Source: an uncultured Gammaproteobacteria bacterium (lineage in GTDB: Bacteria; Patescibacteriota; Microgenomatia; UBA12405; JAHJSD01). Taken from it: DNA of 42,586 nucleotides. Below are positions 4,490-39,119 of the stretch, piece after piece (within the stretch, counting starts at the first letter, position 1; each line of letters starts with the position of its first letter). The stretch spans positions 1 through 42,586 of the forward strand of contig CAYSLZ010000002.1 of the NCBI GenBank assembly GCA_964432015.1, given 5' to 3'. The translations under genes were made by a program, and so were the position numbers. The notes below the pieces were generated by a model, which saw nothing but the letters and a program-made list of their open reading frames with translations, ran no database searches and had not been told where the DNA came from.

Positions 4490-4513
4490 GTAATAGCAGA
4501 CTCTAGTCTGCGT
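4490..4513 (+). repeat. Copy 1 of a 24-nt post-stop hairpin element, GTAATAGCAGACTCTAGTCTGCGT
   Basis: Stem GCAGACT/AGTCTGC. It starts 12 nt after the ybeY-like stop. See copies at 6352, 33351(-) and 39096(-). Confidence 0.85.
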
Positions 4514-4568
4514 CACGCAAGCTGAAGCACGAAACAATTTCAAAATTATTAATTTTAAAATTTTTAAT

Positions 4569-6351: not shown

Positions 6352-6375
6352 GTAATAGCAGACTTCAGTCTGCGT
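6352..6375 (+). repeat. Copy 2 of the 24-nt post-stop hairpin element, GTAATAGCAGACTTCAGTCTGCGT
   Basis: Differs from copy 1 only at the two apical positions. It starts 13 nt after the ybaB stop. Confidence 0.85.
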
Positions 6376-33343: not shown

Positions 33344-33374
33344 TCGAAAAACGCAGGGTAAACCCTGCTATTAC
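33344..33374 (-). terminator. Copy 4 of the post-stop hairpin family, with a covarying stem and a U-tract (intrinsic terminator)
   Basis: Minus sense reads GTAATAGCAGGGTTTACCCTGCGTTTTTCG. Flanks match copies 1-3, and the stem changes from GCAGACT/AGTCTGC to GCAGGGT/ACCCTGC. Confidence 0.65.
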
Positions 33375-33431
33375 AAAGGTTGGGGGTGGGGTTCGCTTTT
33401 GTACTAGTACGCTTTAGCGTGCGTATCAATC

Positions 33432-38999: not shown

Positions 39000-39002
39000 A
39001 AG

Positions 39003-39073
39003 TGGACTTGCCGGGAATTGAACCCGGAATACACCCATGCGAAGGGTGTGGTATACCGTTTACCTACAAGCCC
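39003..39073 (-). tRNA. tRNA-Ala (anticodon CGC) with G3-U70, no encoded CCA
   Basis: The reverse complement is GGGCTTG-TA-GGTA-AACGGTA-TACC-A-CACCC-TTCGCAT-GGGTG-TATT-CCGGG-TTCAATT-CCCGG-CAAGTCC-A. Confidence 0.85.
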
Positions 39074-39095: not shown

Positions 39096-39119
39096 ACGCA
39101 GACTTAAGTCTGCTGTTAC
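39096..39119 (-). repeat. Copy 3 of the 24-nt post-stop hairpin element (minus sense GTAACAGCAGACTTAAGTCTGCGT)
   Basis: It starts 13 nt after the stop of CDS 39133-39510 and lies 22 nt upstream of tRNA-Ala. Confidence 0.85.

What the first reader, a model, noticed from the sequence alone, without database searches (positions are those of the whole stretch)
4490..4513. 24-nt hairpin family GTAAYAGCAG-N-CTGCGT: four sense-oriented copies after stop codons, with stem covariation
Seen: GTAATAGCAGACTCTAGTCTGCGT (4490-4513, +), GTAATAGCAGACTTCAGTCTGCGT (6352-6375, +), GTAACAGCAGACTTAAGTCTGCGT (39119-39096, -) and GTAATAGCAGGGTTTACCCTGCGT (33374-33351, -). Three copies begin 12-13 nt after the stop of the upstream gene, and the fourth begins 57 nt after. 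All are in the transcribed orientation. Copy 4 keeps the flanks GTAATAGCAG / CTGCGT but swaps the inner stem ACT/AGT for GGT/ACC, a compensatory change. Only copy 4 has a clear U-tract. Inference: an RNA-level element, such as a terminator, 3'-end stabiliser, processing site or protein-binding hairpin with a conserved GUAAUA 5' flank, rather than a DNA palindrome.
Basis: partly seen in the sequence, partly recalled or inferred. Interest (0 to 1): 0.6.

Follow-up and report, generated by a model that had tools for sequence, protein, structure and literature searches.

The report
Orphan REP hairpin repeats in Patescibacteria
The four hairpins are real copies of a small repeated DNA palindrome (a REP element) that in other bacteria surrounds its own spreading enzyme; this tiny genome holds about 40 copies but no such enzyme, so it is a known kind of element in a group where I found no published description of it.

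Summary
All four 24-nt copies are at the stated coordinates (0 expected by chance). A fifth copy lies at 33401-33424 (+).

They belong to a family of about 40 copies in this 0.62-Mb Patescibacteria-type genome, all between genes. The layout is GTA(A/G/T)-TA, a 6-bp stem GCNNNC, a TTYA loop, GNNNGC, then GT. The stem covaries strongly (93% Watson-Crick at unconstrained positions).

The family occurs as singles, inverted heterodimers, alternating 61-nt arrays and long forms with an inner hairpin. It is present or absent at orthologous sites and ranges from 0 to about 75 copies among congeners. Orientation relative to genes is not consistently sense, and copies also sit in divergent spacers.

The same element, with an invariant GTAG tag, immediately flanks a REP-associated tyrosine transposase (RAYT) gene in Verrucomicrobia, Armatimonadota, Planctomycetota, Poribacteria, Anaerolineae and two other candidate-phyla lineages.

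I therefore read it as a GTAG-tagged REP/BIME family. It is orphan here: no cognate RAYT is found in this genome or its five congeners.

This scan has noted REP-like repeats in other candidate-phyla genomes before. I rate it a new member of a known kind.

The parts
4490..4513 (+). REP copy 1 (tag GTAA, stem GCAGAC/GTCTGC, loop TCTA). It lies 12 nt after the ybeY stop and 55 nt before dnaX.
   Evidence: model R1 37.9 bits. The orthologous spacer in five congeners has no copy.
4514..4537 (-). Probable decayed inverted partner of copy 1 (AAG-type, tags outward, 0-1 nt spacer).
   Evidence: Read on the minus strand, the 3' half GCTTCAGCTTGCGT is intact and the 5' half is eroded. R1 does not detect it. 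The same AGA/AAG dimer is intact at G000 C10:2228-2276.
6352..6375 (+). REP copy 2, a single copy. It lies 13 nt after the ybaB-like stop and 7 nt before the next start.
   Evidence: The site is filled in G000 and G002 with a compensatory stem change (AGAC/GTCT vs AGGC/GCCT). It is empty, with a 0-2 nt spacer, in G001, G003, G004 and G005.
33351..33374 (-). REP copy 4 (stem GCAGGG/CCCTGC, followed by TTTTT). It lies 57 nt after the GH130 stop and before tyrS.
33401..33424 (+). It forms a dimer with copy 4 (tags inward, 26-nt spacer) and is antisense to the flanking genes.
   Evidence: 33.8 bits. A similar ACG-type copy lies at the corresponding G003 site.
39096..39119 (-). REP copy 3 (tag GTAA followed by CA, loop TTAA). 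It lies 13 nt after the PRTase-like stop and 22 nt before tRNA-Ala.
   Evidence: G003 has a copy at the same site that shares the rare C at position 5 and has a compensatory stem.

Best explanation
The hairpins are REP elements (repetitive extragenic palindromes) of the GTAG-tagged kind. The layout is an unpaired tag GTA(A/G/T), an unpaired TA, a 6-bp stem that starts with GC, a TTYA loop, and a short GT(T) tail.

In REP systems a RAYT (a Y1/HUH single-strand DNA transposase) binds the folded hairpin plus its tag on one DNA strand. It then cuts and rejoins nearby, which spreads singles, inverted dimers and tandem arrays through intergenic DNA.

Shown here:
- The family's anatomy, copy number, arrangements and gain/loss among species.
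- The same element brackets RAYT genes in at least five other phyla and two other candidate-phyla lineages.

Inferred:
- This genus acquired the family together with such a RAYT and then lost the enzyme, or the enzyme is hidden in assembly gaps.
- The copies are now orphan. They are kept as hairpins either by selection on structure or by exchange between copies.
- Transcribed copies will fold in mRNA as a by-product.
For: Family size and position:
- About 40 copies in G000 (35 at E<=1e-3; my curated list holds 43), while the genome is 92% coding.
- None of the 33 short copies checked lies inside an ORF, and all 9 long forms fall between ORF calls.

Structure:
- At the three unconstrained stem positions of 84 pattern-defined copies, 93% are Watson-Crick, with at least 13 paired variants and G.T 11 vs A.C 3.
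- The structure beats all 500 shuffles and all slid registers on cells paired, cells changed on both sides and covariation score. That alignment was picked with a pairing-aware score, so one search is the unbiased test.

REP/BIME arrangements:
- Dimers with tags outward and with tags inward.
- Recurrent heterodimers (AGA+AAG, short+long).
- Alternating arrays with a 61-nt period.
- Long forms with an inner hairpin.

Patchy distribution:
- 0-1 copies in G001, 4-6 in G004, at least 43 in G005, about 75 in G002 and G003.
- 2 single hits in 95 other genomes of the order.
- 21-48 copies in four unrelated small genomes and 6 in a fifth.

Filled versus empty orthologous sites.

RAYT link:
- A 197-aa ORF scoring 100 bits on NF047646 (REP-associated tyrosine transposase, cut-off 80) is bracketed by GTAG-TA-GCGCGC-TTCA-GCGCGC-GT copies in a Verrucomicrobia MAG. 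A 54%-identical ORF is bracketed likewise in an Armatimonadota MAG.
- 16 of 80 homologous RAYT loci, all among the closest 35, have R1 matches next to the ORF ends.
- Two candidate-phyla genomes have the RAYT flanked and invaded by the element.

Literature:
- The layout equals the GTAG-1/-2 type of Di Nocera et al. 2013 (PMC3733652).
- A TTTA loop with specific base requirements is known for the Marinomonas group 3 REPtron (PMC8266576).
Against: - No cognate RAYT in G000. PF01797 gives none. NF047646 gives only a truncated remnant of another clade at C16:115-525. tblastn finds nothing.
- None in the five congeners either.
- The congeners' own RAYT-like genes are framed by a different hairpin family, CACCT-N-AGGTG.
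- The fourth tag base is free here (A 35, T 26, G 22, C 11). Known RAYTs often need GTAG.
- No transposition event, target duplication or tag/flank covariation was seen.
- Orthologous copies stay intact hairpins across species with about 70-80% protein identity. That fits selection for a host function at least as well as selfish persistence.
Confidence: 0.8

Rival explanations
1. A dedicated RNA element. The hairpin with its GUAAUA flank would be selected to act in mRNA 3' untranslated regions as a stabiliser against 3'-5' exonucleases, a processing site, or a brake on terminating ribosomes. Its repetition would reflect a common function, not mobility.
For: - All four window copies, and 6 of 7 single copies between co-directional genes in G000, are sense.
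- Three window copies start 12-13 nt after a stop.
- G.T exceeds A.C 11:3 on the tagged strand.
- Orthologous copies keep pairing through compensatory changes.
- Mean RNA folding energy of the short form is -8.9 kcal/mol.
- From my own knowledge: E. coli REPs stabilise upstream mRNA, and when within about 15 nt of a stop they lower translation (Newbury 1987; Liang, Rudd and Deutscher 2015).
Against: - Sense:antisense is 7:6 in G002/G003.
- Copies lie in divergent spacers, 5 of 26 occupied.
- Inverted dimers, alternating arrays, and 0 to about 75 copies among congeners with compact empty sites.
- The same element brackets RAYT genes in other phyla.
- G.T pairs are also tolerated in single-stranded DNA.
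Confidence: 0.12
2. Intrinsic (Rho-independent) transcription terminators.
For: A GC-containing hairpin just after stop codons. Copy 4 and two other copies are followed by T runs.
Against: Only 3 of 43 copies have 6 or more T in the next 9 nt. Many lie within apparent operons 7-13 nt before the next start, in divergent spacers, or antisense.
Confidence: 0.03
3. A double-stranded DNA binding site (operator-like palindrome) for a lineage-specific regulator or nucleoid protein.
For: Palindromic core and intergenic position, including promoter-containing divergent spacers.
Against: - The central stem bases vary freely as long as they pair. That conserves a fold, not a duplex sequence.
- The asymmetric tag and tail, and the G.T bias, point to one strand.
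- Dozens of copies appear in distant phyla, next to a single-strand transposase gene.
Confidence: 0.03

Closest known systems
GTAG-tagged REPs of the GTAG-1/GTAG-2 layout (Di Nocera, De Gregorio and Rocco 2013, PMC3733652), e.g. Pseudomonas REPs
   Same: - Unpaired 5' tag, then an unpaired dinucleotide, a 6-9 bp stem, a very short loop and a conserved 2-3 nt tail.
- Sub-families with complementary stem changes and G.T pairs.
- Singles, tag-out and tag-in dimers (often heterodimers), and tandem clusters.
- Loop variants holding an inner palindrome.
- Mostly intergenic, with lineage-specific abundance.
   Different: - The fourth tag base is degenerate here (GTAA > GTAT > GTAG), the dinucleotide is TA and the tail is GT.
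- The host is a 0.6-Mb candidate-phyla genome at 37% GC.
- No RAYT is found in the genome.
- Copies in divergent spacers are not rare.
REPtrons: REP plus RAYT/TnpA-REP (Nunvar 2010 PMC2817692; Ton-Hoang 2012 PMC3333891; Corneloup 2021 PMC8266576)
   Same: - The same REP type brackets a RAYT gene (NF047646, 100 bits) in Verrucomicrobia, Armatimonadota, Planctomycetota, Poribacteria, Anaerolineae and two candidate-phyla genomes.
- A TTTA loop with base-specific needs is described for the Marinomonas group 3 REPtron.
   Different: In this genome and its five congeners the cognate RAYT was not found. No binding or cleavage has been tested for this clade.
BIMEs of enterobacteria (alternating Y/Z REPs with linkers)
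   Same: - Tandem units made of two different REP subtypes in alternating orientation, with a conserved linker (TTCAAACC...) and a 61-nt period.
- Short/long heterodimers.
   Different: Much shorter REPs. No evidence here for gyrase, IHF or Pol I binding. The arrays were seen in congeners (G002, G003, G005), not in the window.
CGTC-tagged REPs and other REP families without a dedicated transposase (Di Nocera 2013)
   Same: An abundant, structured REP family with no RAYT in the same genome (abstract).
   Different: This family does have a cognate RAYT in other lineages, so the orphan state is secondary or an assembly artefact.

Membership tests
REP (GTAG-tagged superfamily) | Short (20-40 nt) imperfect palindrome that folds as a stem-loop | tested here: met
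   24 nt with a 6-bp stem and 4-nt loop. 98% of cells are paired in the alignment (copies chosen with a pairing-aware score) and 93% are Watson-Crick at free positions. Long forms are 44-56 nt.
REP (GTAG-tagged superfamily) | Unpaired GTAG (or a near variant) at one end | tested here: inconclusive
   In the genus the tag is GTAN (A 35, T 26, G 22, C 11), with some GGAN/GCAN. Copies in other phyla have an invariant GTAG. The published variants are degenerate at positions 2-3, not 4.
REP (GTAG-tagged superfamily) | GTAG-1/-2 layout: unpaired dinucleotide between tag and stem, and a conserved short tail | tested here: met
   TA follows the tag, and the tail is GT followed mostly by T. Definition.
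REP (GTAG-tagged superfamily) | Many dispersed copies, essentially extragenic | tested here: met
   35-45 copies in 0.62 Mb. None of the 33 short copies checked is inside an ORF, in a genome that is 92% coding.
REP (GTAG-tagged superfamily) | Sub-families with complementary stem changes, and G.T pairs | tested here: met
   At least 13 fully paired stem variants. G.T 11 vs A.C 3.
BIME / REP dimers | Inverted dimers (often heterodimers) and clusters with alternating orientation | tested here: met
   Dimers in G000. Short/long and AGA/AAG heterodimers. Alternating 61-nt arrays at G005:C5 and G002:C3.
REPtron (REP + RAYT) | A RAYT gene flanked by the same REP in the same genome | tested here: not met
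   No cognate RAYT in G000 or in G001-G005. 16 RAYT-like loci of the congeners lack flanking copies. Caveat: these are draft assemblies (G000 is 88% complete) whose contigs often end in REP copies.
REPtron (REP + RAYT) | The REP type is bracketing a RAYT somewhere (a cognate enzyme exists) | tested here: met
   L143/L178, L131/L205, L184, L185, L192, L204 and others; 16 loci in all. The candidate-phyla genomes are L259 and L258. NF047646 scores 100.1 bits against a cut-off of 80.
REPtron (REP + RAYT) | The RAYT binds and cleaves the folded single-stranded REP | not testable with these tools
   Needs EMSA and the cleavage/strand-transfer assay of PMC8266576.
Intrinsic terminator | Stable hairpin directly followed by a U-tract, in the sense orientation at operon ends | tested here: not met
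   3 of 43 copies have 6 or more T in the next 9 nt. Orientation is mixed.
Known RNA families (Rfam 15) | Match at the gathering score | tested here: not met
   Only three tRNAs match in the window.

The most novel reading that the evidence does not exclude
In these ultra-small genomes the REP family has outlived its transposase and is kept by the host. Copies at orthologous sites remain perfect hairpins, through compensatory changes and even swaps of short and long forms, across species whose proteins are only about 70-80% identical. They sit against stop codons and even supply them. That would make them domesticated structural punctuation, for example mRNA 3'-end protection or ribosome and transcription pausing between tightly packed genes, in organisms with a minimal RNA-decay and termination toolkit.
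Probability: 0.25. Interest if true: 0.55.

Novelty: new member of a known kind. Interest (0 to 1): 0.35.

Why it matters
It places a classic selfish or domesticated repeat system, REP/BIME with a RAYT, in candidate-phyla (Patescibacteria) bacteria. My literature searches found no description of REPs in that group.

It also shows one REP type, with its enzyme, shared across at least six phyla. That implies horizontal spread of the whole REPtron.

Practically, these repeats break assemblies of such genomes: many contigs of the congeners end in a copy. They mark sites of gene-cassette gain and loss, and they can serve as lineage markers.

The orphan state, with hairpins kept intact at orthologous sites, offers a clean natural test of whether REPs are retained for a host function once the transposase is gone.

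Tried and rejected
1. Sense-orientation rule. It holds for the window and for G000 singles (6:1) but not in G002/G003 (7:6). Pooled p = 0.26.

2. Replication-strand rule. G000 singles lie on the G-rich strand 11:1, but relatives give 20:13 using short windows that mostly mirror gene direction. Left unresolved.

3. Link to the congeners' own RAYT-like genes. Rejected: these are framed by CACCT-N-AGGTG inverted repeats, not by this element.

4. Guide-model test, looking for covariation between tag base 4 and flanking dinucleotides. None found; the upstream TTY is constant.

5. 'Genus-specific element', my reading. Overturned by the collection scan and by counts in other genomes.

6. Transposase hidden inside the about 1-kb cassettes bounded by copies. 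Rejected: the cassettes encode a methyltransferase-like protein and an AbiE-like pair, judged from the translated sequence only with no family search run.

7. Rfam gives only tRNAs. A PDB sequence search with a congener RAYT-like protein gives nothing.

No 3'-end or expression data were examined.

9. My gene calls are a simple longest-ORF heuristic, so distances to starts are approximate.

Full report
OBSERVATION

It matched none of 100 dinucleotide-preserving shuffles. The copies start 12, 13, 13 and 57 nt after the stops of ybeY, a ybaB-like gene, a PRTase-like gene and a GH130 gene. Copy 4 has the compensatory stem GCAGGG/CCCTGC and is the only one followed by a T run.

A covariance model built later finds a fifth full copy at 33401-33424 (+). 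It is antisense, lies 7 nt after the GH130 stop, and forms a dimer with copy 4. Directly after copy 1 there is what looks like the eroded remnant of an inverted partner.

THE FAMILY IN THE GENOME

The window lies in a 622-kb, 37% GC, 48-contig genome that is 88% complete. Earlier notes of this scan call it Patescibacteria-type.

A mismatch search, a descriptor scan and the model R1 all find the same set:
- 35 copies at E<=1e-3 and 45 at E<=1.
- One hit in shuffled sequence.

The consensus is tttY GTA(A/T/G) TA GCNNNC TTYA GNNNGC GT (T)(A).

By a simple ORF call the genome is 92% coding, yet none of the 33 short copies checked lies inside an ORF. A few overlap a stop codon by 1-7 nt.

STRUCTURE

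I took 84 copies defined by a pattern that leaves three positions free on each arm. Of 252 position pairs, 235 are Watson-Crick, against 25% expected. Eleven are G.T and three are A.C. At least 13 fully paired stem variants occur.

On a 22-copy alignment, no shuffle of 500 and no slid register reaches the observed pairing, cells changed on both sides or covariation score. That set was chosen with a pairing-aware score, so one search is the unbiased test.

The 5' arm is purine-rich. Most variants differ by transitions, the path that runs through G.T intermediates.

Nine copies are long forms of 44-56 nt (one of 79 nt), with the same tag and outer stem plus an inner hairpin of either the GTACC..GGTAC or the GGGCC..GGCCC type.

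ARRANGEMENT

Copies occur in several arrangements:
- Singles.
- Dimers with tags outward, with a 0-7 nt spacer.
- Dimers with tags inward, with a 10-46 nt spacer.
- Recurrent heterodimers: AGA with AAG stems, and short with long forms.
- In congeners, arrays of two subtypes in alternating orientation with a 61-nt period and a conserved linker.

This is the architecture described for REP dimers and BIMEs.

ORIENTATION AND CONTEXT

Single copies between co-directional genes are 6 sense to 1 antisense in G000. They are 7:6 in 40 loci fetched from two congeners, and pooled they give 13:7, p = 0.26.

Occupied spacers in G000 break down as follows:

| Spacer type | Occupied | Total | Total length |
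|---|---|---|---|
| Co-directional | 17 | 433 | 31.6 kb |
| Divergent | 5 | 70 | 10.4 kb |
| Convergent | 4 | 64 | 4.7 kb |

Copy density (21, 8 and 8 copies) roughly follows spacer length in co-directional and divergent spacers. It is about 2.5-fold higher in convergent ones.

Only 3 of 43 copies have a T-tract. A bias of G000 singles towards the G-rich strand (11:1) is not reproduced clearly in relatives (20:13), and it is confounded with gene direction.

RELATIVES

Model counts are 41-45 in G000, about 75 in G002 and G003, at least 43 in G005, 4-6 in G004 and 0-1 in G001. In 95 genomes of other genera of the order there are two single hits.

At the ybaB site, G000 and G002 carry the element, with AGAC/GTCT against AGGC/GCCT. 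Four congeners have the two genes 0-2 nt apart or overlapping.

I could map 30 sites occupied in G002 or G003 onto G000. About 12 are also occupied in G000 and about 18 are empty, several with spacers of only 7-20 nt.

Orthologous copies, recognised by similar flanks, behave in four ways:
- Some are identical.
- Some differ by compensatory pairs.
- Some switch between long and short form.
- Some carry different inner hairpins.

BEYOND THE GENUS

The pattern is loose enough that my own rough estimate is on the order of a hundred chance matches in that collection, so single hits mean little. Some genomes, however, have many hits:
- A Verrucomicrobia MAG, with at least 10 identical GTAGTAGCGCGCTTCAGCGCGCGT copies.
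- Armatimonadota MAGs.
- Several Patescibacteria.

Whole-genome counts in five small genomes that are not among the order-level relatives are 39, 6, 48, 46 and 21. The family is therefore patchy across phyla, not genus-specific.

THE ENZYME

In the Verrucomicrobia contig, a 197-aa ORF sits between copies: two upstream and one 14 nt after its stop. A 54%-identical ORF in an Armatimonadota genome is framed in the same way. The first scores 100.1 bits on NCBIfam NF047646, REP-associated tyrosine transposase, whose cut-off is 80. Both show the HUH (NHYHLLL) and tyrosine (YIHxNP) motifs.

I fetched 80 loci encoding relatives of this protein. They contain 46 R1 matches in 20 loci, 16 of them loci where the matches lie within about 150 nt of the ORF ends. 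All 16 are among the closest 35 relatives: Poribacteria, Planctomycetota, Verrucomicrobia, Armatimonadota and Anaerolineae. All have the form GTAG TA GCNNNN TTCA NNNNGC GT, preceded by GTTY.

Two candidate-phyla genomes, a Candidatus Blackburnbacteria MAG and G103, encode a 230-240 aa relative. It is flanked by the AT-richer version of the element and carries two to three copies in frame inside the ORF.

STATUS IN THIS GENUS

- G000 has no PF01797 match.
- It has no tblastn match to either RAYT clade.
- It has only a truncated remnant of a third Y1 clade at C16:115-525. That remnant is cut off at a 28-nt GTAG...CTAC palindrome.
- The congeners have 3-7 Y1 matches each. None is the cognate clade.
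- None of the 16 loci examined is flanked by this element. Of four examined for repeats, three are framed by 31-49 nt inverted repeats containing CACCT-N-AGGTG hairpins and the fourth by a 26-nt inverted repeat.
- Two of those genes are missing from intact syntenic sites in G000.

The family is thus orphan in the available assemblies. One caveat applies: these are drafts whose contigs often end in a copy, which is exactly where a REP-framed gene would be lost.

MECHANISM

Shown: the anatomy, the covariation, the arrangements, the turnover among species, and the physical association of this REP type with a RAYT clade elsewhere.

From established knowledge of REPtrons (PMC3333891, PMC8266576): the RAYT binds the folded single-stranded hairpin together with the 5' tetranucleotide and cleaves at a nearby dinucleotide. 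The tag can act as a guide for choosing the cut site. Some systems need particular loop bases, including a TTTA loop.

Inferred: the genus obtained the system horizontally and lost the enzyme, or the enzyme is unassembled. The relaxed fourth tag base reflects that loss or AT pressure. The copies persist as hairpins through selection on structure or through exchange between copies.

Transcribed copies must fold in mRNA.

COMPARISON AND NOVELTY

All structural and distributional criteria of GTAG-tagged REPs of the GTAG-1/-2 layout are met. The exact tag is only partly met. The criterion of a RAYT in the same genome is not met.

My searches found no paper on REPs in candidate-phyla bacteria. This scan has already noted REP-like families in other such genomes. 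I therefore rate it a new member of a known kind, of moderate interest.

The more novel possibility is host retention of orphan REPs as structural punctuation. The evidence does not exclude it, and I give it about one chance in four.

Noticed in passing
window 39002-39073 (tRNA-Ala) with 39096-39119: tRNA-Ala(CGC) is on the same strand as the upstream PRTase-like gene in G000. In G001 and G004 (and, from a partial read, G002) it is inverted, so the two are convergent. This is a one-gene local inversion with REP copy 3 at its border.
   Followed up: partly
G000 C6:24329-25400; L059:1943-3017 (G002); L072:2001-3024 (G002): Accessory cassettes of about 1 kb are bounded by REP copies with tags outward and are absent from the orthologous site in another species. 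One holds a SAM-methyltransferase-like ORF and one an AbiE-like two-gene pair, both judged from the translation only. REP sites seem to be hot spots of gene gain and loss.
   Followed up: partly
L012:1321-2099, L013:1240-2044, L015:1231-2016 (congeners): The genus' own RAYT-like genes (PF01797, about 223-245 aa) are framed by 31-49 nt inverted repeats containing CACCT-N3-5-AGGTG hairpins, like the 'TIRtrons' of Di Nocera 2013. G000 keeps only three intergenic relics of that hairpin and has empty sites where two of these genes sit in G005 and G001.
   Followed up: partly
G000 C16:115-525 (L272): The only Y1/HUH-like reading frame in G000 is a truncated N-terminal part (HUH motif present, tyrosine region missing). 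It is the orthologue of 180-189 aa genes in G002 and G005. It is cut off at a perfect 28-nt palindrome with GTAG...CTAC ends, which would be another REP-like family.
   Followed up: partly
L259:1389-1461 and L258:1753-1843: In two other candidate-phyla genomes the cognate RAYT gene carries two to three copies of its own REP in frame inside the ORF, which stays open.
   Followed up: partly
G000 C9:5394-5396, C20:4155-4157, C1:48000-48002, C30:2737-2739, C13:5032-5034: Both ends of the element carry stop codons: G-TAA-TAG-C on the tagged strand, and TAA-CGC on the other strand (from GCGT-TA). Five genes use them as their actual stop codon.
   Followed up: yes
G000 C5:6384-6438 vs L046:2029-2052; G000 C18:5562-5617 vs L059:1943-1996: Orthologous sites hold a long form in one species and a short form in another, or long forms with different inner hairpins. 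The inner module is therefore exchanged or deleted in place.
   Followed up: partly
   Followed up: no
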